Part shown: positions 13,872 to 30,165 of the stretch, piece by piece
Numbering within the stretch: the stretch's first letter is position 1
How the letters are laid out: each line of letters begins with the position of its first letter
Assembly (NCBI GenBank): GCA_945879015.1
Contig: CAMCUO010000005.1
Span: 1,306-65,305 of the forward strand
DNA: 64,000 nucleotides
Source of the DNA: Chitinophaga pinensis
Lineage (GTDB): Bacteria > Bacteroidota > Bacteroidia > 2-12-FULL-35-15
Direction: 5' to 3'
Program-made: the position numbers and the translations under genes
Notes under the pieces: model-generated
The model's input: only the letters and a program-made list of their open reading frames with translations
Databases searched by the model: none
What the model was told of the DNA's origin: nothing

Positions 13872-14999
13872 ATGGGTATTACTTTTTGTAATCCCCATTT
13901 TGTTTTTTACACCCATTCCATTATTGTGGTCGAACCGATAAACAAACAATTGCATTTCATCATTGGCATTGGACGCTCCGGAACGACCATTCTGAATAAG
14001 ATATTAAATTCTCATCCTTCTATTCACAGTTTACCAGAGGCAAATTTCCTTCTTTTTTTTCTGAACGATTATAAAAATGTAACTCGTTTTACAAAAGAGA
14101 ATATTGAGTTAATGTTTCAGCAGATTAAGATCTTTTCATTGTCGCATCCATTGGTTGGTTGGGAATTGGACATGGAAAATGCAAAGCAAAATCTTATAGA
14201 TATTGTTTCAAAAGGTGAATTGTCCTATGCTACACTTTGTAAAACTATTTATTCTGAAATTAAAGTAACAGGGAAAGACAAGTCAAACGCTACAATGCTG
14301 ATTGATAAAAATCCTGCTTTTACTTTATCAGTTGACCAATTGGAAAAACATTTTCCTGAATCAAAATTTATTTTGTTGGTTAGAGATTACAGAGCAAATG
14401 TATTGTCGAGAAAACAAAATGCTTATTTGAAATCACCTCTTGTGCCTTATAATGCTACTCGTTGGAGAGTTTTTAATCTGATTGCCAATAAGTTTTATCA
14501 AAAGCATAAGAGCAAAGTATTGTTATTGAGATATGAAGATTTGGTGAGCGAATACGATGCATCCATGAAAAAAGTGTTTGCCTTTTTAAATGTGAAAGAG
14601 GAAGATATGAAAGAAACGGACTTGTCGAAAGTGGATGTTTCAAAAATGGAAATTGCTAATGAGCATAAAAAATACTTTTCAAAAAAATATGAAGATTTAA
14701 GTAAGCCAATTAATACCAAGAGAGTAAATGCATGGCAAACAGAATTGAGCAAAGAGGATATTGCTGAGTGTGATACTATTTGTGCGAGTTTTGCTAAAGT
14801 GTTTGGTTATACAGAATTTACTCCTGTTCCTTTTTTCAAAAAAATCGGGATTATCTTAAAGAACATTTTTATTATTATTCCTTCTTATTTAGATATTAAA
14901 AAGGATCAGTTGTTGTACCACGTTTCTGCAAAAACAAAAATGAATGCTTTGATTAAGCGACACGAAACGCTTGGTTTTATTAAGCGTTCAGATTCGTAA
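13872..14999 (+). CDS. PAPS-dependent sulfotransferase
   Basis: 5'-PSB loop GIGRSGTTIL and a 3'-PB-like VRDYRANVLSRK. Confidence 0.75.
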   Translation: MGITFCNPHFVFYTHSIIVVEPINKQLHFIIGIGRSGTTILNKILNSHPSIHSLPEANFLLFFLNDYKNVTRFTKENIELMFQQIKIFSLSHPLVGWELDMENAKQNLIDIVSKGELSYATLCKTIYSEIKVTGKDKSNATMLIDKNPAFTLSVDQLEKHFPESKFILLVRDYRANVLSRKQNAYLKSPLVPYNATRWRVFNLIANKFYQKHKSKVLLLRYEDLVSEYDASMKKVFAFLNVKEEDMKETDLSKVDVSKMEIANEHKKYFSKKYEDLSKPINTKRVNAWQTELSKEDIAECDTICASFAKVFGYTEFTPVPFFKKIGIILKNIFIIIPSYLDIKKDQLLYHVSAKTKMNALIKRHETLGFIKRSDS

Positions 15000-15017
15000 A
15001 TTATACTTAATTATAAC

Positions 15018-15043
15018 GTCACACTGAGCGGAGTCCAAGTGCG
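15018..15043. repeat. Family B short repeat gtcacactgagcggagtccaagtgcg
   Basis: Matches the copy at 3625-3650 at 25 of 26 nt. It lies between the two convergent sulfotransferase genes. Confidence 0.7.
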
Positions 15044-15052
15044 TTATCTTTA

Positions 15053-16096
15053 CTAAATCCGATTCTTCGAAGGAGAAGGCCTGAAGGCTAAAGGTAGCTT
15101 GTATTTTATCTTAATTAAAATTCCCCAGACTGAGGATTTCAAATAACAATAGTTGTAATATAGTTTATCGAAAATAGTAGTTTTTTTTGAAGGAATGTGT
15201 TTCGCATAACCGAATCTCAAAGCCAATTTCTCACAAGCAAAATCAAGCAAAGCAATTTCTTCCGATTTTAATTCATTCACATAAGCATTAACCCTTTCGG
15301 TATTTACCTTTTTTTCCAAATTACCGTGCATACGTTGAATTTTTTCATTCTTTTCCTTAGAAACATTTTCCACCGCATGCTTTTTTATCTCTTTTGAAAG
15401 TTCCTGAAAATTGAGCATTTGCTCGGTATACGGAACATGAATGTAGGAACAAAGCAATTGTAAGTGCTCTGTAGGATCACTTGCCAAGTCTTCATATTTA
15501 ATTAAATGATAGGGAATGTTTTTCGTGGCAAGACATTCAAAAATGCTTTCATAATAATAATTCCAATCGGCTGCCAACTTGTGAATTGGAACATTTTCAT
15601 CCGAATATTTTCTTCTCGATAAAATATTGTCTCTGTAATCTCTAACAATGACAATAAATTTTGCATCAGGAAAGATTTCTGAAATTTTATCAATGTGCAA
15701 AGAGTAAGATGGATTTTTATCGATTACCCAATTCACATTTTTCTTCTCTTTTTGAGATAGGGGGTAATTCAAATAAGCGAGCTTGCAAACATTTGCAAAA
15801 GTTTTATCCTTTAACTGAAGGATATCTTTCTTTAATTCCGGACCGGGTTTCCATATACTTATCACTCTGTTGAAATTTTGGTCGAACATATCAATAAATG
15901 CATCCACTACTTTCTCATCATTAAAATCCTGCTGATGAAAGGTGTGATAAGAGTGCATAATGAATTCGTTTTCTGGACTGGCAATAATCTCAGGATTGGA
16001 ATTGAGTATATTTGTGAGAAGAGTAGTGCCCGAGCGACCCATTCCTACAATAAAGGCAATTTTTGGTAAAGATGATAATGGTTTTAATTCAGTCAT
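15053..16096 (-). CDS. PAPS-dependent sulfotransferase (paralog)
   Basis: GMGRSGTTLL and VRDYRDNILSRRK. Confidence 0.75.
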   Translation of the reverse strand: MTELKPLSSLPKIAFIVGMGRSGTTLLTNILNSNPEIIASPENEFIMHSYHTFHQQDFNDEKVVDAFIDMFDQNFNRVISIWKPGPELKKDILQLKDKTFANVCKLAYLNYPLSQKEKKNVNWVIDKNPSYSLHIDKISEIFPDAKFIVIVRDYRDNILSRRKYSDENVPIHKLAADWNYYYESIFECLATKNIPYHLIKYEDLASDPTEHLQLLCSYIHVPYTEQMLNFQELSKEIKKHAVENVSKEKNEKIQRMHGNLEKKVNTERVNAYVNELKSEEIALLDFACEKLALRFGYAKHIPSKKTTIFDKLYYNYCYLKSSVWGILIKIKYKLPLAFRPSPSKNRI

Positions 16097-16310: not shown

Positions 16311-18854
16311 ATGAGGCTAATTGACAAATATTTTCCTTTAATTTCAGTTACTTCAGAAAATCGGGAGGCGCTTTTCAATATCGATAGGCTTCGTTTTTTT
16401 AGTCTGGCTTTAGCGCAATTTATTTTAATTCTTTTTATTGTTACTCGCTATAATTTTGAAAAGTCATCAGGAATAATCGATTATGCTCCTTATGTTATTC
16501 TAGTATTTGCAATTTATAGTTTTATTGCCATCCGTTTTCGTCCAGCATTTCTATTTCTTGCGTGTGTTGCACTTGTTTATGCAGCATTTGGAATTCTGGC
16601 TGGAAGTTTTTTTATTCTTATCGGATTAGGTTTGATTTTAATTTGTCACTTACCTATAAAATATACTTATCGCTTTGTATTAATATTAGCTATTGCATTT
16701 CTTCTAGCTCTTTTTAGGACAGAATTTATTTACATTCCATGGATGACTATGACTGCTATGTACATGGCTCCATTGTTTATGTTCCGACTCATTATTTATT
16801 TGTATGAAATAAAGAACGGAGTGGTACCTGCAAATAAATGGCAAAGTATCAGTTACTTTTTTATGTTTCCAAATGTGTTCTTTCTCTTCTTTCCAATTAT
16901 CGATTACAAAACCTATATCAAAACACACCTCGATTCACCTGAAAAAGAAATATGGCAAAAAGGAATTCGATGGATGCTGCGTGGATTGATTCACATCATG
17001 TGTTATCGTTTGATCTGTTTTCATTTTTTAATCGGACCAGTTGAAGTAATTGACCTTCCAACAATGTTGCAATACATGGTGGTTAATTATTCTTTGATTA
17101 TCAGACTTTCTGGTGTATTTCATTTTATGATTGGTCTGGTTTGTATGTTTGGATTCAATCTTCCTCAAATATTTGACAATTATTTTACTGCTACCAGCTT
17201 TGTTGATTTGTGGAGAAGAATAAATATTTATTGGAGAAATTTCGTTCTAAAAATATTTTTCTACCCAACAATGTTTAGGTATAAAAAAATTCTGAAAAAG
17301 AATTTGTTGGCTTTTACCATGATGACGGTTTTCTTTATAACCTGGATAATGCATAGTTATCAGTTGTTTTGGATAACAGGTGTAGTTTCTGTTAGATCCA
17401 TAGATGTTATTTTTTGGATGGTGATTGGTGCATGTATAACTACAAATTCGGTAATTGTTGAAAAATATACTTTAGCTGAAGACAGAGTAGAAAAGCCTCA
17501 ATCGGAGTTTAAAAAGTATTTCATGAAAATAATCCGAATGATGGGAATGTTTCTTTTCATGTCAATTATGTGGTCGTTATGGAATACACGTACATTGGAA
17601 GATTGGCTTTTTATTGTTTCAAAAGGAAAACAAGTTGATTCGAAACAGTTACTTCTTATTTTTTCGGTTGTAATTGGAATTATTGGTTTAGGAATTCTTG
17701 TTCAGATGATGTTGAAAAATGTTAAGTTAAAACAGCTTATTAATAGGAAACCGCACGAAACAATTTTATTGACTTTGTCTACACTTACACTTCTAACATT
17801 ATTTTCTTTCAAAGAAATTCGTTCTAATATACCTTTATCAGTGCAACATTTGTACGATCAAATTTCTGATGGTTCAGCTAACAAACTTGAGAAAACAAAT
17901 GCTGAAGCAGGTTATTACGATAAATTGATTGAAGGCGAAGAGGGCAATACAATTGGCATAGGAGGAAGGTCATTAAAAAAGATGGTGAAGAAAAATCCTT
18001 ATACCAATGCTTATATTTATCAAAACAATATTGTAAACCGAAGAATGAAACCCAATCTCAACATTGTTGGTTCGGATCATAATTTTCAAAGTAATAGTTT
18101 TGGAATAAGAGATAAAGAGTATTCTATAAAAAAACCTCTTGGAACAAAACGTTTAGCATTGCTTGGCGGCTCTTATCAAATGGGTTCTGGTGTAAATAAC
18201 AATGAAGTTTTTGAAGCCATTGCAGAAGAAAGAATGAACAAAGAGTTGGTGGATACAAATTATAAAGCTTTTGAAATTTTCAATTTTGCTGCTGGTGGTT
18301 ATTATTTGTTGCAGCATGTTGAAATAGTTCATACATCTGTATTTCAATACGACATGGATGCCTTGGTATATTTTGCGCATACTGATGAAAGAGGCAAAGT
18401 GGTAAAAGATTTTACTACTATTATCAAGAAAGAATTGCCATTGAAATACCCATTTCTTCAGCAAATTGTCAAAGAAAGCGGCATTAAATCTTATATGAGT
18501 ATTTTACAAATAAGAGAATTACTGACTCCATATGCCGATACAATTATGAAATGGGGTTATAAGGAAATATATGAGCAATGTAAAAAGAACAATGTGGTTC
18601 CTGTTTGGGCCTATATGGAAACTACTACTGAGTTTGTTGATGATGCAGAATATAATGAGCTAAAAGCATACGCTGAATCATTAGGTTTTGTAACTTTGGA
18701 TTTACGCAATACCTATGGCAATATTGATAGAGTTGAAATTCAGATTTCGGATTTAAATACTCACCCAAATGTATTAGGACATCGATTGATTGCTGAAAGG
18801 TTTTATAAAGAGTTGAAATTAAAAAGAGATAGTATTTTTAGAATTGTTGAATAA
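16311..18854 (+). CDS. MBOAT-family membrane acyltransferase (DltB/AlgI-like) fused to a C-terminal SGNH/DltD-like domain
   Basis: 847 aa. The N-terminal roughly 470 aa are polytopic, with the MBOAT signatures DLWRRINIYWRNF and the conserved His in FFITWIMHSYQLFW. After 2-3 further TMs, a soluble domain carries LLGGSYQMGSG (block I-like Ser) and DLNTHPNVLGHRLIAERF (block V-like). Confidence 0.75.
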   Translation: MRLIDKYFPLISVTSENREALFNIDRLRFFSLALAQFILILFIVTRYNFEKSSGIIDYAPYVILVFAIYSFIAIRFRPAFLFLACVALVYAAFGILAGSFFILIGLGLILICHLPIKYTYRFVLILAIAFLLALFRTEFIYIPWMTMTAMYMAPLFMFRLIIYLYEIKNGVVPANKWQSISYFFMFPNVFFLFFPIIDYKTYIKTHLDSPEKEIWQKGIRWMLRGLIHIMCYRLICFHFLIGPVEVIDLPTMLQYMVVNYSLIIRLSGVFHFMIGLVCMFGFNLPQIFDNYFTATSFVDLWRRINIYWRNFVLKIFFYPTMFRYKKILKKNLLAFTMMTVFFITWIMHSYQLFWITGVVSVRSIDVIFWMVIGACITTNSVIVEKYTLAEDRVEKPQSEFKKYFMKIIRMMGMFLFMSIMWSLWNTRTLEDWLFIVSKGKQVDSKQLLLIFSVVIGIIGLGILVQMMLKNVKLKQLINRKPHETILLTLSTLTLLTLFSFKEIRSNIPLSVQHLYDQISDGSANKLEKTNAEAGYYDKLIEGEEGNTIGIGGRSLKKMVKKNPYTNAYIYQNNIVNRRMKPNLNIVGSDHNFQSNSFGIRDKEYSIKKPLGTKRLALLGGSYQMGSGVNNNEVFEAIAEERMNKELVDTNYKAFEIFNFAAGGYYLLQHVEIVHTSVFQYDMDALVYFAHTDERGKVVKDFTTIIKKELPLKYPFLQQIVKESGIKSYMSILQIRELLTPYADTIMKWGYKEIYEQCKKNNVVPVWAYMETTTEFVDDAEYNELKAYAESLGFVTLDLRNTYGNIDRVEIQISDLNTHPNVLGHRLIAERFYKELKLKRDSIFRIVE

Positions 18855-18888
18855 TATATTTGTTTGTCAAACTTAAAATATAAAAAAC

Positions 18889-19152
18889 ATGCGTGCAGAC
18901 ATTAACGAAATAAAAGAAACAGTAAAGGCGTTCGTTAATAAACGTTTTTTAAAAAATGCTGAAGGGAAAGAATTAAACTATTCAACTCCTCTCATTTCTG
19001 GTGGTATTATTGATTCGATACTTGCTATGCAGTTGGTTGTTTTCCTAGAACAAACCTACAGGTTTGAATTTCAAGCACACGAAGTTGATAAAGATAATTT
19101 AGATAACATCGATATCATTGCAGGGTTTGTTGTAAAGAAGTTGAATGCATAA
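18889..19152 (+). CDS. Stand-alone carrier protein (PCP/DltC-like)
   Basis: 87 aa. GGIIDSILAMQLVVFLE contains the phosphopantetheine Ser. Its 3' end overlaps the adenylase start. Confidence 0.8.
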   Translation: MRADINEIKETVKAFVNKRFLKNAEGKELNYSTPLISGGIIDSILAMQLVVFLEQTYRFEFQAHEVDKDNLDNIDIIAGFVVKKLNA

Positions 19153-20599
19153 GGTAAATAAGCTATATCAGCTTCTTGAAAATTCGGCAGAACAGTTTCC
19201 GGATAATACTGCTTTAGTTTTGCAAGAAAAAAAGATTAGCTATCAACAATTAGATTCATTAGCTAATAAAATAAAACAAGCTCTTCATTCTATAAACATT
19301 TCTGAAGGAAATCGTATCGCTATTTGCTCTCCTAAATCCATTGAATTTGTCGCCTCTATTTTCGGAATATTAAAAGCTGGTGCTGCTTATGTTCCTGTTG
19401 ATTATAATTCACCTATTGAACGCAATAATTTTATTATTGAAAATTGTGAAGTAGCTGCAATTATTATTACTAAAGACTTGTTAGAAAATTTTAAAAATAA
19501 TTTTACGTTTTTCGCAGATATTGGAATTGATTTAGTTTTAGCAAAAAGCAATAAGGTAACATTAAAAAAATCTTCTGAAGATTTATCCTATATTCTATAT
19601 ACTTCAGGCTCAACGGGAAATCCAAAGGGTGTAATTTATACCAATGCTGGAGCACTTGAATTTATCAATTGGAGTTCAAATACTTTTTCTCCCACTTCGA
19701 GTGATTGTTTTTCGTCGCATGCGCCTTTTCATTTCGATCTTTCTATTTTTGATTTATATGTTTCTATAAAGCATGGAGCAACTTTGGTTCTGATAAAAGA
19801 AGAAGTGGCGAAACAACCTATGCTATTGGCTCAATTAATTTCAGAACAAAAAATTAGTATTTGGTATTCTACTCCTTCAATTCTAATAATGCTTTCGGAA
19901 TATGGCAAAATGGAAAAGTATAAGTATGATAGTTTGAGATTGATATTATTTGCTGGTGAAGTTTTCCCAATTGTCAAATTAAATACATTAAAGAAAAAAG
20001 TTAAAACATCGGTTTTTTATAATCTTTATGGACCAACAGAAACAAATGTTTGTACGTATTATCAATTGCCTGAAAATATTGAAACAAATATTCCGATTGG
20101 AAAAGTATGCGAACATTATCAAGCCTGTGTTGTTGGTGATGAGCTTTTAATTAGCGGAAAAGGTGTGATGTTGGGTTATTGGAATGTTCCTGAAAAAGAT
20201 AATTTTTGGAAGGACCAAGAAAATAGATTTTGGTACAAAACGGGTGATTTGGTAGATGTTGCAGAGAGTGGAGATTATATCTTTAAAGGCAGAAGAGATA
20301 GAATGGTGAAGCGCAATGGTTATAGAATAGAATTGGATGAAATAGAAACAGGATTAAGTAAACATCCCGATATTGTTATTGCGGCTGTTGTCAGTAAGAA
20401 CAATGAAGAAGAGCAAATGATTATTTCTGCCTTTGTTGTTTTAAGAAATACTGAGCAAAAATCAGTCATAAAAATGAAGGAATATTGTATGAATCACTTA
20501 CCTTCGTATATGGTTCCCAACGACTTTATTTTTGTTGAGGATTTGCCACAAACATCAAGCAATAAAGTGGATTATCAGAAATTAAAACAATTAGCCTAA
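19145..20599 (+). CDS. Stand-alone NRPS-type adenylation enzyme (DltA/PltF-like amino acid--carrier protein ligase)
   Basis: All A-domain cores are readable: LKAGAAYVPVD, LYTSGSTGNPKGV, FHFDLSIFD, NLYGPTETNV, YKTGDL, GRRDRMVKRNGYRIELDEIE, LPSYMVP, NKVDY. Confidence 0.85.
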   Translation: MHKVNKLYQLLENSAEQFPDNTALVLQEKKISYQQLDSLANKIKQALHSINISEGNRIAICSPKSIEFVASIFGILKAGAAYVPVDYNSPIERNNFIIENCEVAAIIITKDLLENFKNNFTFFADIGIDLVLAKSNKVTLKKSSEDLSYILYTSGSTGNPKGVIYTNAGALEFINWSSNTFSPTSSDCFSSHAPFHFDLSIFDLYVSIKHGATLVLIKEEVAKQPMLLAQLISEQKISIWYSTPSILIMLSEYGKMEKYKYDSLRLILFAGEVFPIVKLNTLKKKVKTSVFYNLYGPTETNVCTYYQLPENIETNIPIGKVCEHYQACVVGDELLISGKGVMLGYWNVPEKDNFWKDQENRFWYKTGDLVDVAESGDYIFKGRRDRMVKRNGYRIELDEIETGLSKHPDIVIAAVVSKNNEEEQMIISAFVVLRNTEQKSVIKMKEYCMNHLPSYMVPNDFIFVEDLPQTSSNKVDYQKLKQLA

Positions 20600-21747
20600 T
20601 GGAACTTTCCTTATCAACAGAGCAAATGCTTATCCAGGAAAACATTATTGGTTTTGCTCAAAAAGAATTGAATAATAATATTATTGAGCGCGATAAAAAC
20701 CAGCAGTTTTTACCTGAATTATGGAAAAAATGTGCGGAACAAAAACTTACTGGATTACCTGTTGAGGAAAAATTTGGTGGTGCTGGTTTAGATCCTATTT
20801 CTTCTGTTTTAGCATTGGAAGCATTGGGTTATGGCTCCGATGACGGTGGTTTGAATTTTTCTATATGTGCACATTTATTGGCTTGTGTTGTTCCTATCTG
20901 GAAATACGGAAACGAAAATCAAAAGAAAAAATACTTGCCTGATTTATGTAATGGAAAAAAAATTGCTGTAAATGCAATGACAGAAAGCGAATCGGGTTCG
21001 GATGTTTTTAATATTAAAACAACTGCTAAAAAGCAGGATAATGGATTTGTGATAAACGGAACAAAAACGTTTTGTTCAAATGGTCCAGTTGGAGATATAA
21101 TTTTAGTTTATGCGCTTACTGATGAAAGCAAAGGGTATTATGGTGGAATTACAGCTTTCATTGTAGATAAAAATGCAAAAGGATTTAAAGTCGGTCAGAA
21201 ATATGAGAAAATGGGTTTGCGCAGTTCGGGTATTTCTGAAGTAATATTTGAAAATGTTTTTGTTTCAGAAGAAGATATGGTTGGAGGATTTGGTGGTGGA
21301 GCAACGGTGTTTAATCATTCGATGGAGTGGGAGCGAACTGGTATGGCAGCTTTGCATGTTGGAACCATGCGCAAGTTGCTTGAAAAATCAATTGATTATG
21401 TTCAAACACGCAAATCAGGAAATGAAGTAATCGGTAAAAAACAAGCTATCGCTCATCGCATTGCAAATATGAAAGTTCAATTGGAAGCAGCTTCTTTGCT
21501 TACTTATAAAGCTGCATTAGGATTAGAAAAAAATAAAGAGAACATGATTCATGCAGCTTCAGCTAAACTTTTTGTGAGTGAAGCATTTGTTGCTGCTGCG
21601 ATTGATACCATGCAACTTTTTGGTGGAAATGGTTATATGACAGAATACGGTATTGAAAGAATTGTGCGAGATGCTCTTGGAAGTACTGTTTATTCTGGCA
21701 CATCCGATATTCAACGTAACATCATTTCTCGTTTGCTTGGATTGTAA
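20599..21747 (+). CDS. Acyl-CoA dehydrogenase-family flavoprotein, probably acting on a carrier-bound substrate
   Basis: 382 aa with the ACAD fold length. The C-terminal RDALGSTVYSGTSDIQR has Ser where MCAD has the catalytic Glu, and a Glu is present in SMEWER (IVD-like position). Start shares nt 20599 with the adenylase stop. Confidence 0.8.
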   Translation: MELSLSTEQMLIQENIIGFAQKELNNNIIERDKNQQFLPELWKKCAEQKLTGLPVEEKFGGAGLDPISSVLALEALGYGSDDGGLNFSICAHLLACVVPIWKYGNENQKKKYLPDLCNGKKIAVNAMTESESGSDVFNIKTTAKKQDNGFVINGTKTFCSNGPVGDIILVYALTDESKGYYGGITAFIVDKNAKGFKVGQKYEKMGLRSSGISEVIFENVFVSEEDMVGGFGGGATVFNHSMEWERTGMAALHVGTMRKLLEKSIDYVQTRKSGNEVIGKKQAIAHRIANMKVQLEAASLLTYKAALGLEKNKENMIHAASAKLFVSEAFVAAAIDTMQLFGGNGYMTEYGIERIVRDALGSTVYSGTSDIQRNIISRLLGL

Positions 21748-21790
21748 AATATTTAGTATTTTAGCGCTAGTTCTCGATACTACTAAATTT

Positions 21791-23179
21791 ATGAAACTAT
21801 ACGATGTCATCATTATTGGCGGGGGGCCAACAGGTTCAACTGCTGCGACACTTTTAGCTCAAAAAGGGTTAAGTGTTTTGTTGTTAGAAAAAGAATCCTT
21901 CCCAAGAGAACATGTTGGTGAATCATTGATTCCGATTTCTTATGATCAATTGAATAAGTTGGGATTGGTTGAAGAAATGAAAAAAATTTCTAGTCGTAAA
22001 CCTGGAGTTAGTTTTGATGCAAATGATGGTGTGAACCGATCTTTATGGTGTTTTAAAAGTGTTATTAAAGATGAATCATATTTAGCTTTTCATGTTATCC
22101 GTTCGGCATTTGATAAGCTTTTGTTGGATAATAGTAAAAAAGTGGGAGCTGAAGTGAGAGAGCAATACATGGTGAAAAATGTAATTCTTGATAGAGCAGA
22201 TAAAATAGTAGAAGTGCATGCAACAAATGCAGAAGGCAAAGAAGAAAAATTTGAATCCAAATTTATTGTTGACGCAAGTGGACTAAGTACTTTTCTAGGA
22301 AGAAAATTGGGAGTTAAAAAAGCATATGCGGGTTTAGATAGAGTGGCTACTTGGTCGCACTGGACAAACACCGAATTTGATACAAATTTAAAAGAAGGCG
22401 TTATTAAAATTGTTTATTTGGGTGGAGAGAAAAAAGGATGGATATGGGTTATTCCTGTGAGCAAAGAGCATTTGAGCATTGGTGTGGTTGTGAATAACAG
22501 TCATGTGAAAGAAAAGAAAAAGCAATTTCAAGATTCAGAAGATTGGAAAAAAGATTATTATTTGCAGGAACTACAAGAATGTTATTTGTATAAAACGGTA
22601 TTGAAAAACGCTAAGATGGAGCATAAAGTTGCCATGGCTGGTGACTACTCTTATTACTGCGAAAAAAAGTATGGTGAAAATTATGCTTTAGTTGGAGATG
22701 CTGGTGCATTTTTAGATCCTATTTTTTCAAGCGGAATTTTTGTTGGAATGAAGAGTGCTGAATTGGTAGCGGATGGTATTGAAGCGAACCTGAAAGGAAA
22801 AGGGAATGCTGAAATGGACAAAGCTTATGTTAATATCAATGGTGCTGTCAACTTACTTGAAAAATTTATTCGCTTGTTTTATACTCCTGAAGCACTTGAT
22901 TTTTCTAAGATTGGAACTCCAGAAGGACTTTTAATGTTTAAAAAATACGAACAAACATATTCCGTTTTCCATTACTTATTAGCGGGTGATTTTTTCAATA
23001 ATTATGAAAAGTACAGTGAATTTATTGATACCATACGTGATGAGAAGACTATGGCCAAATTCGAAAATTTAATTGATCACGCGCACAGCGCCTTACCTAA
23101 AAGTTGCGGAGAAGATTTTGAAGAAATGTATGGTGAAATGACGCATAAAATTGAGTTTGATCATAAGGCGTTTGAGTAA
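21791..23179 (+). CDS. FAD-dependent halogenase-like oxidoreductase
   Basis: Start taken at MKLYDVIIIGGGPTGS (GxGxxG). Also carries FPREHVGESLIP, GWIWVIP (WxWxIP) and GDAGAFLDPIFSSG. The ORF-track start at 21653 overlaps the ACAD gene and is rejected. Confidence 0.7.
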   Translation: MKLYDVIIIGGGPTGSTAATLLAQKGLSVLLLEKESFPREHVGESLIPISYDQLNKLGLVEEMKKISSRKPGVSFDANDGVNRSLWCFKSVIKDESYLAFHVIRSAFDKLLLDNSKKVGAEVREQYMVKNVILDRADKIVEVHATNAEGKEEKFESKFIVDASGLSTFLGRKLGVKKAYAGLDRVATWSHWTNTEFDTNLKEGVIKIVYLGGEKKGWIWVIPVSKEHLSIGVVVNNSHVKEKKKQFQDSEDWKKDYYLQELQECYLYKTVLKNAKMEHKVAMAGDYSYYCEKKYGENYALVGDAGAFLDPIFSSGIFVGMKSAELVADGIEANLKGKGNAEMDKAYVNINGAVNLLEKFIRLFYTPEALDFSKIGTPEGLLMFKKYEQTYSVFHYLLAGDFFNNYEKYSEFIDTIRDEKTMAKFENLIDHAHSALPKSCGEDFEEMYGEMTHKIEFDHKAFE

Positions 23180-23201: not shown

Positions 23202-23325
23202 GAGAGATTGCCACATCCCGCGAAAATGCGGGACTCGCAATGACGCTCTGTTATGTGGTTATCGCTTTTAGAACGTCATTGCGAGGCACGACCCGAGCAT
23301 TCGGGGCGGGATGTGGCAATCTCTC
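23202..23325. repeat. Family A composite palindromic element, second copy, units in swapped order
   Basis: gagagattgccacatcccgcgaaaatgcgggactcgcaatgacgctct, then a 21-nt spacer, then gaacgtcattgcgaggcacgacccgagcattcggggcgggatgtggcaatctctc. It lies between convergent genes. Confidence 0.85.
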
Positions 23326-23349: not shown

Positions 23350-24063
23350 TCAAAAAAACCAAGCACTAACATTCATCACAATCTTCCTTCCCCAAGAAGG
23401 AACATGTTTTAAAAAATAAAAATTCTGAAATTTTAATTGCCACCAAAGTGTTGCATTTACTTTAGCACAAATTTGTTTTTTGTCATTTTCAAATTCTTCA
23501 CGTAAAATATCAATAATCAAAATCCACCGTTCATTTTCTGTTTTGTTCCATACTTCATGTTCGTATGCATCACAGAAGGCAAAGAGTTTTCCATTTTTCC
23601 ATGAAATTTGCTCATTTCCAACTCTCATTCCAATTTCCGGTAAGCTATTTTTGCAGTTTAAAGTAAAGTGACATCGATACATCACATTGCTATCACCATG
23701 ATGTGGTTTTATGGAAGTATTTGCATTTAAAATGGAAAACGAAGCATGTGTCATTGCTGGAATGCTTTCGATTATTCTTGTCGTCTCCGGACATTTTTCA
23801 CAATTTTCTTTTTTCTTTTTGCTCCAAACATACAATGGAAAAATAGTCCAGTTCTCTGCTTTGCTGGCAAGTGATTTATTCATGTAAGGAATAATATTTT
23901 TATCCTTTGATTCAACAAGTTTGGTGAATTCTTTTAAAATTAAATCGTAATTGTCTTCAAAAAGAGCCACCCATTTTTTGTCATGGATATCAAAAAAATT
24001 AGGCTCTGGGCCTTTGTAAGCGCTATTCTCTGCAAACGAATACCATTTCTTTGAATTTCCCAT
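23350..24063 (-). CDS. Aspartyl/asparaginyl beta-hydroxylase (AspH/LpxO) family Fe(II)/2OG dioxygenase, paralog 1
   Basis: KPHHGDSNVMYRCHFTL and FCDAYEHEVWN. Confidence 0.75.
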   Translation of the reverse strand: MGNSKKWYSFAENSAYKGPEPNFFDIHDKKWVALFEDNYDLILKEFTKLVESKDKNIIPYMNKSLASKAENWTIFPLYVWSKKKKENCEKCPETTRIIESIPAMTHASFSILNANTSIKPHHGDSNVMYRCHFTLNCKNSLPEIGMRVGNEQISWKNGKLFAFCDAYEHEVWNKTENERWILIIDILREEFENDKKQICAKVNATLWWQLKFQNFYFLKHVPSWGRKIVMNVSAWFF

Positions 24064-24806
24064 TAGTAAACTTTAAATAGATTAACACTTACTATAGCCA
24101 GTCGTGTAAATGGATGTAAACATTTTGCTAAAAACTTAATTGTTCTAGCAGATAATTTTTTAAGAAAAGTATATTTCTGCCATCTCTTTTGTAAAAAAAG
24201 CGAAGTCATTACTGTTGCGCAAATTTTTTCTTTTTCATTTTTAAATTCATCACGCACAACATCCACCACAAAAATAAAACGATCTTTCTCCGAATTATTA
24301 TACGCTTCATGTTGATAGGCATCCATAAACATCAACCATTTCCCATTTTTCCATGGACGAACTTCCTCTTTAACTTTAAAGGCACATTCTGGAAGTCCAG
24401 CCGGAATTTCCAGTCCTAAATGACATCTATAAATAGTATTTGTATCTCCGCAATGTGGATGAATTTTACTTTTTGCTTCTAATAAATTAAAAGAGGAAGA
24501 AGTAATTTCTGGATATTTTTGAATAATGGAATAAGTTATTGGAAAATATTTCTGATTTTTAAACTGTTGAATTCCCCATGTTCTCAGTGGAATTGTTTTC
24601 CAGCTATTTTCACGCGAAACCATTGATTTTATAAAATAACCAATGAGGTTGTCGCTTTTAAGATATTCTTTGAGTTCTTTATAAATGGCTTCGTAATTTT
24701 CTTCAAACTCTTTTGTCCAGCGAAATTCTTCTGGTTTAGTAAAAGGAGCTTCCGTTCCATGATATTCGTCATTTACGTTATATATGTTGTACCAAGCCTT
24801 TTGCAT
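24063..24806 (-). CDS. AspH/LpxO-family dioxygenase, paralog 2
   Basis: HPHCGDTNTIYRCHLGLEIP and FMDAYQHEAYN. Its stop shares nt 24063 with the paralog 1 start. Confidence 0.75.
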   Translation of the reverse strand: MQKAWYNIYNVNDEYHGTEAPFTKPEEFRWTKEFEENYEAIYKELKEYLKSDNLIGYFIKSMVSRENSWKTIPLRTWGIQQFKNQKYFPITYSIIQKYPEITSSSFNLLEAKSKIHPHCGDTNTIYRCHLGLEIPAGLPECAFKVKEEVRPWKNGKWLMFMDAYQHEAYNNSEKDRFIFVVDVVRDEFKNEKEKICATVMTSLFLQKRWQKYTFLKKLSARTIKFLAKCLHPFTRLAIVSVNLFKVY

Positions 24807-24850
24807 CCACTCTTTATTTATTATATTTGTTTTAGTAAAAACTCTAGCAA

Positions 24851-25537
24851 ATGTCTGAATTCGAATTTACAAATAAAAATCCTAAGTTCTTTTATGATTC
24901 TGCTCAGTTTCCTTTTTTGAAGCCATTGCTTGATAATGTTGGGGTTATTCGAAAAGAGTTGCAAGATATTATTGCTTCAGGAAAGGAAAATCAATGGATG
25001 AATACGTTTCCACATTATGTAAAATCTGACGAGCACAAAGCTTGGAAGGTATTTTCATTTTTGTTCTTTAATATGAAGCTTCCCAACAACGCAAAATTAT
25101 GTCCGAAAACGGCTGAACTCATTTATTCTATTACAGAGATTCTTTCTTGTGATTATTCTTATATGAATCCAGGAACTCATGTGCTGCCTCACAAAGGTTA
25201 TTCACGAATGGTTTTACGTTGTCACATTGCTTTGATTGTTCCAGATGAGGAACTTTGTGCTTTACGTGTTGGAAATGAAATTAAACATTGGAAAGAAGGC
25301 GAACTTATAATTTTTGATGATTCATTTGAACATGAAGCATGGAATAGATCCGACAAAAGAAGAGTTGTTTTAATGTTTGATATTCCAAATCCCCTTTGGG
25401 GATATACTGCTCATGAAATTTCAAAATATAAAATTGATAAAATTGATGATCCTTTTCTTTTATCGATGGCTCCCAAAGATGAATGGATAAAAGCGTTTGA
25501 AAAAGGAATTTTTCCTTTGGAGAGTTTTAAAGATTAA
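24851..25537 (+). CDS. AspH/LpxO-family dioxygenase, paralog 3
   Basis: LPHKGYSRMVLRCHIALIVP and FDDSFEHEAWN. It is divergent from paralog 2 across a 44-bp spacer containing TATATTTG (24821-24828). Confidence 0.75.
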   Translation: MSEFEFTNKNPKFFYDSAQFPFLKPLLDNVGVIRKELQDIIASGKENQWMNTFPHYVKSDEHKAWKVFSFLFFNMKLPNNAKLCPKTAELIYSITEILSCDYSYMNPGTHVLPHKGYSRMVLRCHIALIVPDEELCALRVGNEIKHWKEGELIIFDDSFEHEAWNRSDKRRVVLMFDIPNPLWGYTAHEISKYKIDKIDDPFLLSMAPKDEWIKAFEKGIFPLESFKD

Positions 25538-26584: not shown

Positions 26585-27196
26585 TTAGAGCAAAGCATTT
26601 ATCGCCTCCATATTCTCATCACAAACTTCACCGCTAAATTTTAATTCCGCATTTTGATCGCTCAAAATTGCAGCAGCTTTATTTAGTTTTGCACCAATTG
26701 TTTTGTAGTCATCCACGTGCAATTCGTATAATTGATTGTCCACATGCTCTTGATCTGACAGTAATTTGTAGCCAAGTAACTTGTTGTAATGAATGGCTCT
26801 ATCATTGTCGCTCAATATTCTGATACGAGAAATTTTGCTGACATTTAATTTTAAAAACATAAAATTCAAAAGACACAATGTTGCAAAAACGGCTGCAAAG
26901 GAGCTGATGTAGTCTTTGTCACTAATAAAAATTCCTCCTTCGCCAAATCCTAAGCCTACATCATAATTTTTTGCATTGATGAGTCCAACTTGTTTGCCTT
27001 CAAATTCAATAATAAAATAATAATTGTTTCTGTTGTTTACGGATTTGAACCAAATTTTTTGAGCTTCAGGTGTAATGAAATTACGGTATTCCATGTAATT
27101 AGCAATATCACTTTGGTTTCTCCAATTACGAACCATCTCAATATCTTTTTCTTGCACTCTTACAAGCCGAACGCCATATTGTTCAAGAACTAACAT
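26585..27196 (-). CDS. GNAT-family N-acetyl/acyltransferase (PseH-like size)
   Basis: 203 aa with an N-terminal RLVRVQEKDIEMVRNWRN typical of sugar-N-acetyltransferase GNATs. Start overlaps the GT2 stop. Confidence 0.6.
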   Translation of the reverse strand: MLVLEQYGVRLVRVQEKDIEMVRNWRNQSDIANYMEYRNFITPEAQKIWFKSVNNRNNYYFIIEFEGKQVGLINAKNYDVGLGFGEGGIFISDKDYISSFAAVFATLCLLNFMFLKLNVSKISRIRILSDNDRAIHYNKLLGYKLLSDQEHVDNQLYELHVDDYKTIGAKLNKAAAILSDQNAELKFSGEVCDENMEAINALL

Positions 27197-29892: not shown

Positions 29893-30129
29893 TTATTTTA
29901 ATTTTTCGATAGTAATATTATAAAGATCTTGGATTGTTTGTGCCGATTTTAAATCAGCGCCATTTAATAATGCATTAAAATTCGCATCAATGTATGCAAT
30001 GATAATTAAGGCATGCATACTGCTCCAACCTTTTATACTTCTAAAGTTTGTAGCGGAGCTAAGAGTCCCAGGTTCTAAATCTTCAAATTCAACTTCTAAA
30101 CCTTTCGTAAATTCTTCTATGCTATTCAT
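29893..30129 (-). CDS. Acyl carrier protein
   Basis: 78 aa. KGWSSMHALIIIAYID has the Ser attachment context. It abuts the downstream KASIII with no gap. Confidence 0.7.
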   Translation of the reverse strand: MNSIEEFTKGLEVEFEDLEPGTLSSATNFRSIKGWSSMHALIIIAYIDANFNALLNGADLKSAQTIQDLYNITIEKLK

Positions 30130-30165
30130 AAATGTAAATATATTAAAATATACAATTCAAGATGA

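What the first reader, a model, noticed from the sequence alone, without database searches (positions are those of the whole stretch)
16311..23179. Dlt-like carrier/MBOAT-SGNH export module in one operon with a halopyrrole-type on-carrier tailoring cassette
Five same-strand genes are tightly packed. The PCP stop overlaps the adenylase start (19145-19152), the adenylase stop and ACAD start share nt 20599, and the other gaps are 34 and 43 nt. The content reads as two known logics spliced together.
(a) MBOAT + SGNH + small carrier protein + stand-alone adenylase is the DltB/DltD/DltC/DltA scheme, which passes a carrier-bound aminoacyl group across the membrane onto an envelope polymer.
(b) Carrier protein + adenylase + ACAD-like flavoprotein + flavin halogenase is the PltL/PltF/PltE/PltA scheme (also Bmp, Red and Pig pathways), which converts prolyl-S-PCP to (halo)pyrrolyl-2-carboxyl-S-PCP.
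Only one carrier and one adenylase are present, so both logics would have to share them. I see no condensation domain, type I/II KS or thioesterase to off-load a product, which leaves the MBOAT-SGNH protein as the obvious acceptor-side enzyme.
Inference: an oxidised, possibly halogenated aminoacyl (pyrrole-carboxyl-like) group is exported and esterified onto a surface glycan or lipid. I am not aware of a described Dlt-type pathway with on-carrier dehydrogenation or halogenation.
Basis: partly seen in the sequence, partly recalled or inferred. Interest (0 to 1): 0.85.

Follow-up and report, generated by a model that had tools for sequence, protein, structure and literature searches.

The report
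Carrier-fed MBOAT-SGNH exporter for halopyrrole acyl groups
This five-gene operon very likely makes a chlorinated or brominated pyrrole-carboxyl group from proline on a small carrier protein and passes it to a fused membrane acyltransferase that probably attaches it to a sugar-containing molecule outside the cytoplasm; the halogen-free four-gene core occurs in at least eleven bacterial phyla and I found no description of it.

Summary
In detail: five same-strand genes with the stated overlaps and gaps. All five identities hold.

- **Carrier and adenylase:** the carrier keeps its phosphopantetheine serine. The adenylase specificity code is DLFYLALVCK, against DLLYLALVCK in PltF, so it loads proline rather than D-alanine.
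- **Tailoring enzymes:** the ACAD scores best against the PigA, RedW and AnaB prolyl-carrier dehydrogenases. The flavoprotein keeps the halogenase lysine and the GWIWVIP motif.

Comparative genomics adds a wider picture. MBOAT-SGNH, carrier, Pro-adenylase and ACAD form a conserved four-gene module in at least 11 phyla (32 of 45 well-flanked loci). The halogenase is an add-on found in 11 of the 79 loci. Every family member keeps the MBOAT histidine, a linker G-Y-Y-[E/D]-x-L motif that may be an acyl-shuttle tyrosine, and the SGNH serine and histidine.

In Bacteroidia the module travels with sulfotransferases, OlsC-like hydroxylases, an ArnC-like GT2, a GNAT and KASIII/ACP genes. Two family members carry a carbohydrate-binding module.

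Best reading: a Dlt-like acyl relay delivers a (halo)pyrrole-2-carboxyl group to an extracytoplasmic glycan. The transfer itself and the acceptor are inferred, not shown. I found no published description.

The parts
16311..18854 (+). Gene 1, 847 aa: MBOAT membrane domain (about residues 1-430), two further TM helices (444-467, 481-504), a flexible linker, then an SGNH domain (563-847)
17352..17354 (+). Codon of His348, the predicted MBOAT catalytic histidine (motif HSYQLFW)
   Evidence: Invariant in 23 aligned homologues and in about 85 family copies from 79 loci. The universally conserved MBOAT His is required in DltB and PatA (PMC12148441).
17910..17927 (+). G534-Y535-Y536-D-K-L: candidate acyl-shuttle tyrosine motif in the linker between the last TM helix and the SGNH domain
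   Evidence: G-Y-Y-[E/D/K/Q]-x-[L/I/M] is essentially invariant across the family. It lies in the low-confidence, flexible segment 532-561. In position it resembles the FxYxxF motif that follows two extra TM helices in PatA/AlgI-type MBOATs and sits in DltX. Its function is inferred, not tested.
18171..18173 (+). Codon of Ser621, the SGNH block I nucleophile (GGS). Asn658 (block III) is at 18282-18284 and His818 (block V, THPN) at 18762-18764
   Evidence: Ser621 and His818 are invariant in the 23-sequence alignment and nearly so across the roughly 85 family copies (one copy has Asn for the Ser). Asn658 is nearly invariant. The profile gives weak hits to GDSL esterases at the block V region.
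18889..19152 (+). Gene 2, 87 aa: stand-alone type II carrier protein. Predicted phosphopantetheine Ser43 (GGIIDS) is at 19015-19017
   Evidence: PP-binding scores 16.6 bits, below the cut-off. NCBIfam ACP_for_OlsHI scores 75 bits, below its cut-off of 130, and DltC scores 19 bits. PDB hits are the TcsA ACP 6cxt_A at 33 bits, PltL 19.6, PigG 15.4 and DltC 13.5. The (G)GI(L/I)DS motif is conserved in 56 of 57 orthologues.
19145..20599 (+). Gene 3, 484 aa: stand-alone adenylation enzyme, predicted to be L-proline specific
   Evidence: AMP-binding plus AMP-binding_C. TIGR01733 scores 317 bits. The DltA models score 298 and 284 bits, below their cut-offs of 476 and 560. The best single-domain PDB hit is PltF 6o6e at 273 bits. 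The pocket fragment scores PltF 114.7, PigI 85 and DltA 59-70 bits. The Stachelhaus code is DLFYLALVCK; PltF is DLLYLALVCK. Of the 45 adenylase sequences aligned (44 from the fetched loci plus the window's own), 20 have DLLYLALVCK and 13, including the window's, have DLFYLALVCK.
20599..21747 (+). Gene 4, 382 aa: ACAD-family flavoprotein, predicted prolyl-S-carrier dehydrogenase
   Evidence: Three ACAD domains. NCBIfam PigA scores 418 bits (cut-off 500) and RedW 381 (cut-off 650); the next family, AcrC, scores 289. PDB hits are AnaB 4irn 322, TcsD 6cxt 295 and PigA 5zw0 291; the best generic ACAD scores 257. Glu245 in the WER motif is conserved, and the MCAD-type Glu position is Ser (YSGT) in nearly all of the 28 family members aligned (YAGT in one).
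21791..23179 (+). Gene 5, 462 aa: flavin-dependent halogenase. Lys70 is at 21998-22000 and W217-I-W-V-I-P222 at 22439-22456
   Evidence: Trp_halogenase and FAD_binding_3. The CmlS-type halogenase model scores 191 bits against 147 for the geranylgeranyl reductase superfamily model. PDB hits are 8zop 174, CndH 157, Mpy16 151, CmlS 149, Bmp2 147 and PltA 146; geranylgeranyl reductase scores 46. GxGxxG and Lys are kept in all 20 homologues and GWxWxIP in most, with two or three divergent copies. Two different halogenase subtypes sit next to the cassette in different phyla.
13872..16096 (.). Two sulfotransferase genes, 13872-14999 (+) and 15053-16096 (-). Associated with the module in Bacteroidia only
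   Evidence: Sulfotransfer_3 and Sulfotransfer_1. Weak NoeE-like hits. They are kept next to gene 1 in L001-L006, L008 and L009, including the rearranged L009; L007 has other sulfotransferase families in that position.
23350..25537 (.). Three Asp/Asn beta-hydroxylase family genes (OlsC/LpxO-like): 23350-24063 (-), 24063-24806 (-) and 24851-25537 (+)
   Evidence: PF05118. Best NCBIfam hits are OlsC and LpxO, both below cut-off. One to three copies stay with the module in L002, L003, L007, L009, L010, L011 and L018 in different arrangements.
26585..31179 (-). Minus-strand operon: GNAT (26585-27196), ArnC-like GT2 (27190-28107), SDR (28104-28847), KASIII (28834-29892), ACP-like 78-aa ORF (29893-30129), KASIII (30166-31179)
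   Evidence: Pfam and NCBIfam assignments. Both KASIII proteins keep the Cys-His-Asn triad. The small ORF carries GWSSMHAL and is conserved in L007. The whole set sits upstream of gene 1 on the same strand in L007, L009, L010 and L018, where gene 1 is 33-46% identical, but downstream on the opposite strand here. It has been rearranged yet kept.

Best explanation
The operon is a carrier-protein-fed transmembrane acyl relay. It works like Dlt but carries a proline-derived heteroaromatic acyl group.

Steps supported by sequence tests:
- The stand-alone adenylase activates L-proline and loads it on Ser43 of the 87-aa carrier.
- The ACAD-family flavoprotein oxidises prolyl-S-carrier. The product is pyrrolyl-2-carboxyl-S-carrier if oxidation is four-electron as in PigA, RedW and PltE, or pyrroline-carboxyl if two-electron as in AnaB.
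- In this lineage the flavin-dependent halogenase chlorinates or brominates the tethered pyrrole.

Steps inferred:
- The MBOAT domain of gene 1 docks the acyl-carrier at the cytoplasmic face, as DltB docks DltC.
- Using His348, it moves the acyl group across the membrane onto a tyrosine of the invariant G-Y-Y-[E/D]-x-L linker motif.
- The flexible linker delivers the acyl group to Ser621 of the fused periplasmic SGNH domain.
- The SGNH domain esterifies a hydroxyl of an extracytoplasmic acceptor.

In this Bacteroidia lineage the acceptor is most likely a sulfated, acylated glycoconjugate built by the co-inherited sulfotransferase, GT2, GNAT, KASIII/ACP and OlsC-like genes. In other phyla the same four-gene core, without the halogenase, would attach unhalogenated pyrrole-2-carboxyl groups to some envelope glycan.
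For: Proline loading: the code is DLFYLALVCK against PltF's DLLYLALVCK. The pocket fragment's best PDB hit is PltF, and the code is conserved in 33 of the 45 adenylase sequences compared, the window's own included.

Oxidation: the best family and structure hits are prolyl-carrier dehydrogenases, and the family keeps a Glu at the IVD-type base position.

Halogenation: Lys, GWIWVIP and the FAD motifs are present. The gene sits directly after the ACAD or the adenylase wherever the neighbouring genes are visible, and two different halogenase subtypes were recruited in different phyla.

Relay:
- The MBOAT His, the SGNH Ser and His and the GYY linker motif are invariant or nearly so.
- The loop 468-482 (KNVKLKQLINRKPHE) is strongly basic. 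By the positive-inside rule this places the linker and SGNH domain outside the cytoplasm (read from the sequence).

Coupling:
- Of 45 loci with at least 4 kb on both sides of gene 1, 36 have the carrier, 34 the Pro-adenylase and 32 the adenylase plus ACAD. The order is usually gene 1, carrier, adenylase, ACAD, and the loci span at least 11 phyla.
- Nothing else is conserved across phyla, and no C domain, TE or PKS is present. Gene 1 is therefore the only candidate off-loader.

Glycan acceptor:
- Two family members carry a C-terminal CBM_4_9.
- Saprospiraceae loci place tandem gene 1 paralogues among glycosyltransferases, sulfotransferases and a Wzm/Wzt-type ABC exporter.
- The Bacteroidia set includes an ArnC-like polyprenyl-phosphate sugar transferase and a PseH-like GNAT.

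Mechanistic precedent: an acyl-Tyr shuttle runs between MBOAT and SGNH in the Dlt and PatAB systems (PMC12148441).
Against: - No transfer step has been demonstrated, and no acceptor is identified.
- The linker motif (G-Y-Y-E-x-L) differs from the published FxYxxF motif.
- The ACAD scores are below the PigA and RedW equivalog cut-offs, and AnaB, which performs a two-electron oxidation, is the best structural hit. The oxidation state is therefore uncertain.
- The halogenase is about equally distant from pyrrole-specific enzymes (PltA, Bmp2, Mpy16) and from non-pyrrole carrier-dependent halogenases (CndH, CmlS).
- The carrier resembles DltC only weakly, at 13.5 bits.
- Eleven of the 45 well-flanked loci show no cassette within 10 kb. 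At least three of these have a halogenase at the locus edge, and others come from genomes that hold a cassette at another gene 1 locus.
Confidence: 0.55

Rival explanations
1. Export and release. The same relay moves the (halo)pyrrolyl group across the membrane, but the SGNH domain acts as a hydrolase. The cell then secretes free (halo)pyrrole-2-carboxylic acid as a small-molecule signal or antimicrobial rather than decorating a polymer.
Against: Every characterised bacterial MBOAT-SGNH pair is a transferase acting on envelope polymers. Two to four tandem gene 1 paralogues share one carrier cassette (L013, L022, L026, L072). That makes sense for different acceptor positions, not for hydrolysis. 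Some members carry CBM_4_9 fusions. Glycan and sulfation genes are linked to the module in Bacteroidia and Saprospiraceae. A cytoplasmic thioesterase plus a pump would be a simpler route.
Confidence: 0.2
2. The two halves are not coupled. Gene 1 is an ordinary acyl-CoA-dependent (for example acetyl) MBOAT-SGNH glycan O-acyltransferase. The pyrrolyl-S-carrier is consumed by another enzyme; in this Bacteroidia cluster that could be a nearby KASIII using it as a starter or transferring it to the second ACP, as KASIII-like enzymes do in aminocoumarin pathways (own knowledge).
For: Two KASIII genes with intact Cys-His-Asn triads and an ACP-like ORF lie 5.7-8 kb downstream and are inherited with the module in Bacteroidia. 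All described MBOAT-SGNH systems other than Dlt use acyl-CoA. The carrier is only weakly DltC-like.
Against: The KASIII set is absent from the four-gene modules of proteobacteria, Gemmatimonadota, Acidobacteriota and other phyla, where gene 1 is the only partner. Gene 1 and the carrier gene are typically 35-100 nt apart in one operon across at least 11 phyla. DltB, the carrier-dependent MBOAT, is the best fold match.
Confidence: 0.12
3. It is a conventional Dlt-type D-alanylation or a fatty-acylation system of a Gram-negative envelope, and the ACAD and flavoprotein are unrelated metabolic enzymes.
For: The DltA models give sizeable but sub-threshold scores (298 and 284 bits), and JGI names some gene 1 homologues DltB.
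Against: The specificity code is the PltF/PigI proline type, and four pocket positions differ from DltA in the printed alignment. The ACAD is translationally coupled to the adenylase by a 1-nt overlap and is conserved with it in 32 of 45 loci. The DltA scores are well below their cut-offs of 476 and 560.
Confidence: 0.03

Closest known systems
DltA/DltC/DltB/DltD(/DltX) teichoic acid D-alanylation system of Gram-positive bacteria
   Same: A stand-alone adenylase loads a small carrier protein. An MBOAT takes the acyl group from the carrier, and an SGNH-fold enzyme makes the final ester outside the cytoplasm. DltB is the best structural match of gene 1.
   Different: The substrate is L-proline, oxidised and here halogenated on the carrier, not D-alanine. 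MBOAT and SGNH are fused in one 847-aa protein. I saw no DltX-like microprotein, though small ORFs were not searched for one; instead there is an in-chain GYY motif after two extra TM helices. The hosts are diderm phyla without lipoteichoic acid. The DltA and DltC models score below their cut-offs.
PatA/PatB, AlgI/AlgJ/AlgX, WssH/WssI: acyl-CoA-dependent MBOAT-SGNH O-acetylation of peptidoglycan, alginate and cellulose
   Same: An MBOAT with two extra C-terminal TM helices is followed by a conserved tyrosine motif, which hands the acyl group to an SGNH serine for transfer to a glycan (PMC12148441). Gene 1 has the same layout: helices 444-467 and 481-504, then GYY, then SGNH.
   Different: Those systems use separate proteins, acetyl-CoA and the motif FxYxxF. 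The paper states that they lack a carrier protein. Here the domains are fused, the motif is G-Y-Y-[E/D]-x-L, and a carrier cassette is the conserved neighbour.
PltF/PltL/PltE/PltA (pyoluteorin), PigI/PigG/PigA and RedM/RedO/RedW (prodiginines), Bmp1-4: type II NRPS pyrrole cassettes
   Same: A Pro-specific stand-alone adenylase with the DL[LF]Y.A.VCK code, a type II PCP, an ACAD-family prolyl-PCP dehydrogenase, and a flavin-dependent halogenase acting on carrier-tethered substrate.
   Different: Those pathways pass the pyrrolyl unit to a PKS, KS or thioesterase to build a diffusible natural product. Here no such partner is in the operon, and the conserved partner is a membrane MBOAT-SGNH. The ACAD and halogenase are only about 30-45% identical to the characterised enzymes.
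CloN/CouN pyrrolyl transfer in clorobiocin and coumermycin biosynthesis (own knowledge)
   Same: A pyrrole-2-carboxyl group made on a PCP from proline is transferred as an ester onto a sugar hydroxyl (noviose 3'-OH) through acyl-enzyme intermediates.
   Different: That route is cytoplasmic and uses soluble enzymes: a KASIII-like enzyme and an alpha/beta-hydrolase acyltransferase plus a second carrier. The acceptor is a small-molecule antibiotic, not an envelope component, and no MBOAT is involved.
AlmE/AlmF/AlmG glycine addition to Vibrio cholerae lipid A (own knowledge)
   Same: A Gram-negative envelope modification in which a DltA-like adenylase and a carrier protein supply an aminoacyl group.
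   Different: The transferase AlmG belongs to the LpxL/lysophospholipid acyltransferase family and acts at the cytoplasmic face. There is no MBOAT or SGNH, and no on-carrier tailoring.
OatA/OafA AT3-SGNH fused O-acetyltransferases
   Same: A single polypeptide joins a transmembrane acyl-translocating domain to a periplasmic SGNH transferase and uses an acyl-Tyr intermediate.
   Different: The membrane domain is AT3, an unrelated fold, and the donor is acetyl-CoA.
SsfX3, an SGNH-fold salicylyl transferase of the SF2575 tetracycline pathway
   Different: It is a soluble cytoplasmic enzyme with a CoA donor and a small-molecule acceptor.

Membership tests
Dlt D-alanylation system | MBOAT (DltB) with the catalytic histidine | tested here: met
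Dlt D-alanylation system | D-alanine-specific adenylase DltA | tested here: not met
   The code DLFYLALVCK matches PltF (DLLYLALVCK). The DltA models score 298 and 284 bits against cut-offs of 476 and 560. The pocket fragment scores 115 bits against PltF and 59-70 against DltA.
Dlt D-alanylation system | D-alanyl carrier protein DltC | tested here: inconclusive
   It is a carrier protein with a conserved DS serine. The DltC model scores 19 bits against a cut-off of 68, and PDB DltC scores 13.5 bits, below PltL at 19.6 and the TcsA ACP at 33.
Dlt D-alanylation system | Separate SGNH-fold DltD and a DltX microprotein with an FxYxxF tyrosine | tested here: not met
   The SGNH domain is fused to the MBOAT. 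I saw no DltX-like small gene in the operon, but small ORFs were not specifically searched. An in-chain G-Y-Y-[E/D]-x-L motif stands in its place.
Dlt D-alanylation system | Acceptor is (lipo)teichoic acid | not testable with these tools
   The hosts are Bacteroidota, Pseudomonadota, Gemmatimonadota and other phyla, which lack lipoteichoic acid (own knowledge).
Acyl-CoA-dependent MBOAT-SGNH glycan O-acyltransferases (PatAB, AlgIJX, WssHI) | Two extra TM helices after the MBOAT core, followed by a conserved acyl-shuttle tyrosine hexapeptide FxYxxF | tested here: inconclusive
   Two extra helices (444-467, 481-504) are followed by an invariant GYY[E/D]xL motif in a flexible linker. The motif differs from FxYxxF at position 1, and its acylation has not been tested.
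Acyl-CoA-dependent MBOAT-SGNH glycan O-acyltransferases (PatAB, AlgIJX, WssHI) | SGNH partner with Ser nucleophile, oxyanion Asn and His | tested here: met
   Ser621 (GGS), Asn658 and His818 (THPN) are invariant or nearly invariant. The SGNH fold is confirmed.
Acyl-CoA-dependent MBOAT-SGNH glycan O-acyltransferases (PatAB, AlgIJX, WssHI) | Acyl-CoA donor, with no carrier protein | not testable with these tools
   Gene context argues against it: a carrier gene lies within 10 kb of gene 1, usually immediately adjacent, in 36 of 45 well-flanked loci.
Type II NRPS pyrrole cassette (PltFLEA, PigIGA, Bmp) | Stand-alone L-Pro adenylase with the DL[LF]Y.A.VCK code | tested here: met
Type II NRPS pyrrole cassette (PltFLEA, PigIGA, Bmp) | ACAD-family prolyl-S-PCP dehydrogenase | tested here: inconclusive
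   The best NCBIfam hits are PigA (418 bits) and RedW (381), but both are below their equivalog cut-offs of 500 and 650. The best structure hits are AnaB, TcsD and PigA. No tree with reference sequences could be built.
Type II NRPS pyrrole cassette (PltFLEA, PigIGA, Bmp) | Flavin-dependent halogenase with catalytic Lys and WxWxIP | tested here: met
   Lys70 and GWIWVIP are present here; the Lys is kept in all 20 homologues and the WxWxIP motif in most. Specificity for pyrrole could not be established.
Type II NRPS pyrrole cassette (PltFLEA, PigIGA, Bmp) | Hand-over of the pyrrolyl unit to a PKS, KS, C domain or thioesterase | tested here: not met
   None of these is in the operon or in the four-gene modules of other phyla. 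KASIII genes occur nearby only in Bacteroidia.

The most novel reading that the evidence does not exclude
Pyrrole-2-carboxylation, and in some lineages halopyrrole-carboxylation, is a widespread and so far unrecognised covalent modification of extracytoplasmic glycans or glycolipids in diderm bacteria. It would be installed by a self-contained module: a Pro-specific adenylase, a carrier, a prolyl-carrier dehydrogenase and a fused MBOAT-Tyr-SGNH relay. That module is found in at least 11 phyla and more than 500 species genomes. If so, natural-product-style on-carrier tailoring feeds directly into cell-envelope chemistry.
Probability: 0.45. Interest if true: 0.88.

Novelty: new variant of a known kind. 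Interest (0 to 1): 0.78.

Why it matters
**Extending the Dlt principle.** Dlt is currently the only MBOAT-SGNH pathway known to take its acyl group from a carrier protein. A 2025 mechanistic paper states that the other MBOAT-SGNH pathways lack a carrier protein. This module would extend the carrier-fed principle to Gram-negative and other diderm phyla. The donor would no longer be a plain amino acid but a heteroaromatic acyl group that is oxidised, and sometimes halogenated, on the carrier.

**A tractable model enzyme.** The fused architecture puts the MBOAT His, a candidate shuttle Tyr and the SGNH Ser in one polypeptide. That makes it a convenient single-protein model for the acyl-Tyr relay.

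**A new envelope decoration.** The module would define a new chemical decoration of bacterial surfaces, possibly halogenated and sulfated. This could affect charge, hydrophobicity, phage or predator recognition and biofilm matrix properties, including in wastewater organisms such as Accumulibacter.

**Assigning function.** It would give a role to a family of at least 774 clusters at 50% identity that no Pfam or NCBIfam model covers. If the release variant is right instead, it would explain how many bacteria make secreted pyrrole-2-carboxylic acid.

Tried and rejected
1. Pfam and NCBIfam scans of gene 1, whole and split in two, gave nothing usable; the best was GDSL_2 at E=0.11. Sequence and profile searches of gene 1 against the PDB were also negative or marginal. 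Only structure prediction and fold search resolved it.
2. The ACP_for_OlsHI lead was followed into the OlsHI paper. That pathway uses a GH3-like enzyme and an alpha/beta hydrolase, with no MBOAT. The match is below cut-off and I dropped it.
3. A tblastn of the ACAD against plasmids, meant to fetch annotated PigA/PigI references, returned only generically annotated ACADs and was not pursued. In consequence no reference-rooted phylogeny of the ACAD or the halogenase was made. HMM and PDB score rankings serve as a proxy.
4. A text search for the specificity codes found no paper. The PltF and PigI codes were instead read from PDB alignments obtained with a pocket fragment.
5. Literature searches combining MBOAT, SGNH or DltB with pyrrole, prolyl, halogenase or type II NRPS found no description of such a module. 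A search for PDB code 8ZOP found nothing.
6. The afdb50 fold library was unavailable.
7. I looked for longer family members fused to carrier or adenylation domains, which would link the two halves directly. None was found, but two members carry CBM_4_9 fusions.
8. An AlphaFold complex of the carrier with gene 1 was not attempted, because chimeric sequences are not accepted by the tool.
9. D-alanyl and fatty-acyl readings were rejected on the specificity code.
10. DUF808 (25603-26526) was excluded from the cluster because it is absent from the syntenic L002 and L003.

Full report
**Observation**

- gene 1, 16311-18854 (847 aa)
- gene 2, 18889-19152 (87 aa)
- gene 3, 19145-20599 (484 aa)
- gene 4, 20599-21747 (382 aa)
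- gene 5, 21791-23179 (462 aa)

The mechanical ORF for gene 5 starts at TTG 21653, but homologues align from the ATG at 21791. The junctions read directly from the DNA are an 8-nt overlap between genes 2 and 3, a TAATG 1-nt overlap between genes 3 and 4, and gaps of 34 and 43 nt. The window comes from an 89-kb ENA metagenome contig (ERZ27280328). It belongs to an uncultured, low-GC (about 33%) Bacteroidia-like organism.

**Gene 1 is a fused MBOAT-SGNH protein, visible only by structure**

- No Pfam or NCBIfam model matches it, whole or split. Sequence and profile searches of the PDB give at best marginal GDSL hits.
- An AlphaFold2 model built on 23 homologues is confident: pLDDT 82, pTM 0.75. 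It shows a helical membrane domain up to about residue 520, a disordered stretch at 532-561, and an alpha/beta domain at 563-847.
- About 85 family copies from 79 loci share these residues, invariant or nearly so:
  - the MBOAT histidine (His348, HSYQWFW) and the WRRINIYW motif
  - the SGNH serine (Ser621, GxS)
  - Asn658
  - His818 (D/NxHPN)
  - a linker motif G-Y-Y-[E/D/K/Q]-x-[L/I/M] at residues 534-539
- The linker motif follows two extra TM helices (444-467, 481-504) and lies in the flexible linker. PatA/AlgI-type MBOATs carry their acyl-shuttle tyrosine motif FxYxxF in the same position, and in the Dlt system that motif sits on DltX (PMC12148441).
- The strongly basic loop 468-482 suggests that the linker and the SGNH domain face the periplasm. 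This is an inference from the sequence.

**The carrier cassette is a proline-to-pyrrole cassette, not a D-alanine one**

- Adenylase:
  - It is an NRPS-type A domain (TIGR01733, 317 bits). The DltA models score well below their cut-offs.
  - As a single domain its best PDB match is PltF at 273 bits.
  - A 146-residue pocket fragment scores 114.7 bits against PltF, 85 against PigI and 59-70 against DltA.
  - Using the PheA numbering anchored on the FD(x)S and NxYGPTE motifs, the Stachelhaus code is DLFYLALVCK. Read from the same alignments, PltF is DLLYLALVCK and PigI is DLFYIAWVCK.
- Carrier: it keeps the GGI(I/L)DS serine in 56 of 57 orthologues. It is closer to PltL, PigG and the TcsA ACP than to DltC, although all these scores are weak.
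- ACAD:
  - It scores 418 bits on the PigA model and 381 on RedW, both below their equivalog cut-offs; the next family scores 289.
  - Its best structures are AnaB (322 bits), TcsD (295) and PigA (291), against 257 for a generic ACAD.
  - The family keeps Glu245 (WER) and has Ser at the MCAD-type base position.
- Halogenase:
  - Gene 5 has GxGxxG, Lys70 in RKPGVSF (aligned to the CndH and Mpy16 lysine), GWIWVIP and the second FAD motif.
  - Its best structures are carrier-dependent halogenases: 8zop, CndH, Mpy16, CmlS, Bmp2 and PltA at 146-174 bits. Geranylgeranyl reductase scores 46.

**Comparative genomics changes the picture**

The 79 loci fetched come from Bacteroidota, Rhodothermota, Ignavibacteriota, Gemmatimonadota, Planctomycetota, Verrucomicrobiota, Beta- and Gammaproteobacteria (including Accumulibacter and Halioglobus), Acidobacteriota, Chloroflexota, Binatia and Hydrogenedentota.
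- An exhaustive HMMER search finds 774 clusters at 50% identity with E<=1e-30. Nearly all are full-length fusions.
- Of 45 loci with at least 4 kb on both sides, 36 have the carrier, 34 the adenylase and 32 the adenylase plus ACAD. The usual order is gene 1, carrier, adenylase, ACAD. Only 10 have a strong halogenase hit.
- Several apparently orphan loci show a halogenase at the very edge of the fetched flank, or come from genomes with a cassette at another gene 1 locus.
- The adenylase code is DLLYLALVCK in 20 and DLFYLALVCK in 13 of the 45 adenylase sequences compared (44 from the fetched loci plus the window's own). The few variants differ mainly at position 299.
- All-against-all clustering of neighbouring ORFs shows that nothing else is conserved across phyla. 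The conserved unit is therefore a self-contained four-gene module, and the halogenase is a lineage-specific add-on. At least two halogenase subtypes were recruited: RKPGVxF/GWIWVIP in Bacteroidota and K[YH]GA.W/GWVWQIP in Rhodothermales and Chloroflexota.

**Clues to the acceptor**

- In Bacteroidia the module is inherited together with:
  - sulfotransferases
  - one to three OlsC/LpxO-like hydroxylases
  - a PseH-like GNAT
  - an ArnC-like GT2
  - an SDR
  - two Cys-His-Asn KASIII genes flanking a small ACP-like ORF
- This set lies downstream on the opposite strand in the window. It lies upstream on the same strand in L007, L009, L010 and L018, where gene 1 is only 33-46% identical. It has therefore been rearranged but kept.
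- In Saprospiraceae, two to four tandem gene 1 paralogues sit among GT4 and GT8 glycosyltransferases, sulfotransferases and a Wzm/Wzt-type ABC exporter.
- Two family members carry a C-terminal CBM_4_9 after the SGNH domain.
- Together these point to a glycan or glycolipid acceptor. Multiple paralogues sharing one cassette argue for transfer to different positions rather than hydrolysis.

**Mechanism proposed**

The steps supported by tests are proline activation and loading, an ACAD of the prolyl-carrier dehydrogenase kind, and a bona fide flavin-dependent halogenase signature.

The inferred steps are:
1. The ACAD oxidises prolyl-S-carrier to pyrrolyl-2-carboxyl-S-carrier. A two-electron oxidation as in AnaB cannot be excluded.
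2. The halogenase acts on the tethered pyrrole.
3. The acyl-carrier docks on the MBOAT, as DltC docks on DltB.
4. His348 catalyses transfer to Tyr536 or Tyr535.
5. The linker swings to Ser621.
6. The SGNH domain esterifies an extracytoplasmic hydroxyl.

I put this at 0.55. The rivals are:
- release of the free acid by hydrolysis, 0.2
- uncoupled functions, with the KASIII genes or other enzymes consuming the pyrrolyl-carrier, 0.12
- plain D-alanylation or fatty acylation, 0.03

**Comparison with known systems and novelty**

- The module works like Dlt but is not a Dlt system. The adenylase specificity test fails, the carrier test is inconclusive, the SGNH domain is fused and no separate DltX gene was seen.
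- It shares the layout of PatAB/AlgIJX-type relays. Its context, however, indicates a carrier-protein donor, which the 2025 PatAB paper states those pathways lack.
- It shares the cassette of pyoluteorin, prodiginine and Bmp pathways but lacks their PKS, KS or thioesterase off-loading.
- Reviews of bacterial membrane acyltransferases list only AlgI, PatA, WssH and DltB, each with a separate SGNH partner.
- Five text searches of the held literature found no description of an MBOAT coupled to prolyl or pyrrole chemistry. The library lacks most subscription-journal papers, so prior description cannot be excluded.
- I classify it as a new variant of a known kind: two known logics joined, with a new donor class for an MBOAT-SGNH relay and a fused architecture.

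**Limits**

- No reference-rooted phylogenies could be built.
- No complex model of the carrier with gene 1 was made.
- The acceptor and the halide are unknown.
- All of the closest relatives are uncultured. Cultured carriers of related modules exist: Pseudothauera rhizosphaerae, Phaeodactylibacter xiamenensis and Rhodocaloribacter litoris.

Noticed in passing
window 23202-23325; also 7768-7889 and 55075-55086: A nested palindromic, REP-like element lies between the convergent halogenase and hydroxylase genes. Its outer arms are 20 nt and 100% complementary; its inner arms are 21 nt and 86% complementary. Its core, CGTCATTGCGAG, recurs as an inverted pair at 7768/7878 and once more, with one mismatch, at 55075. 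That is 5 hits against 0.13 expected. It may be a terminator or a small mobile repeat.
   Followed up: partly
window 31280-33304 (+): A 674-aa protein with a multi-TM N-terminal domain (first loop YSMDDEF) and C-terminal TPR repeats. Its homologues carry PMT_2 or TMTC_DUF1736 hits, and JGI names some of them protein O-mannosyltransferase. This suggests a GT-C glycosyltransferase that uses polyprenyl-phosphate sugars. It abuts the KASIII end of the cluster here and in L018, so it may use the product of the ArnC-like GT2 and help build the acceptor.
   Followed up: partly
window 29893-30129 (-): A 78-aa ORF with no Pfam or NCBIfam hit sits between two KASIII genes. It carries a GWSSMHAL motif and looks like a divergent acyl carrier protein. 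An equivalent ORF is conserved in L007 (2064-2345).
   Followed up: partly
loci L013, L022, L026, L072 (also L012, L015, L029, L041, L053): The MBOAT-SGNH gene occurs in tandem arrays of two to four paralogues, up to four in the Saprospiraceae locus L072. These often share a single carrier cassette, which suggests several acceptor positions or several acceptors.
   Followed up: partly
proteins P0313 and P0298 (gene 1 family): Some family members have a carbohydrate-binding module (CBM_4_9) fused after the SGNH domain. The Chloroflexota copies (L035, L069, L079) are also about 120 aa longer than the rest, but their extensions were not examined.
   Followed up: partly
loci L022 5559-6272, L026 19363-20070, L059 1433-2134: In Saprospiraceae a SAM-dependent methyltransferase directly follows the halogenase. 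This hints at a further tailoring step (methylation) on the pyrrole unit in that lineage.
   Followed up: no
loci L035 and L069 (Chloroflexota): These loci hold two Pro-type adenylases (DLLYLALVCK, plus DLLYLALVCK or DLFYLALVCK). L035 also holds two halogenases of different subtypes; L069 has one. The genes surround one MBOAT-SGNH gene in the order adenylase, gene 1, ACAD, adenylase, halogenase.
   Followed up: no
window 25603-26526 (-): A DUF808 membrane protein gene is inserted between the hydroxylase genes and the GNAT gene in the window. It is absent from the otherwise syntenic L002 and L003, so it is probably not part of the cluster.
   Followed up: partly
window 7978-9090 (+); L007 17557-20535; L016 12816-18974: Proteins with type IX secretion C-terminal sorting domains lie near the module in several Bacteroidota and Rhodothermales loci. 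One is a 2052-aa protein with GDSL, CBM96 and PKD domains next to gene 1 in L016. Whether these are related to the module is unknown.
   Followed up: no
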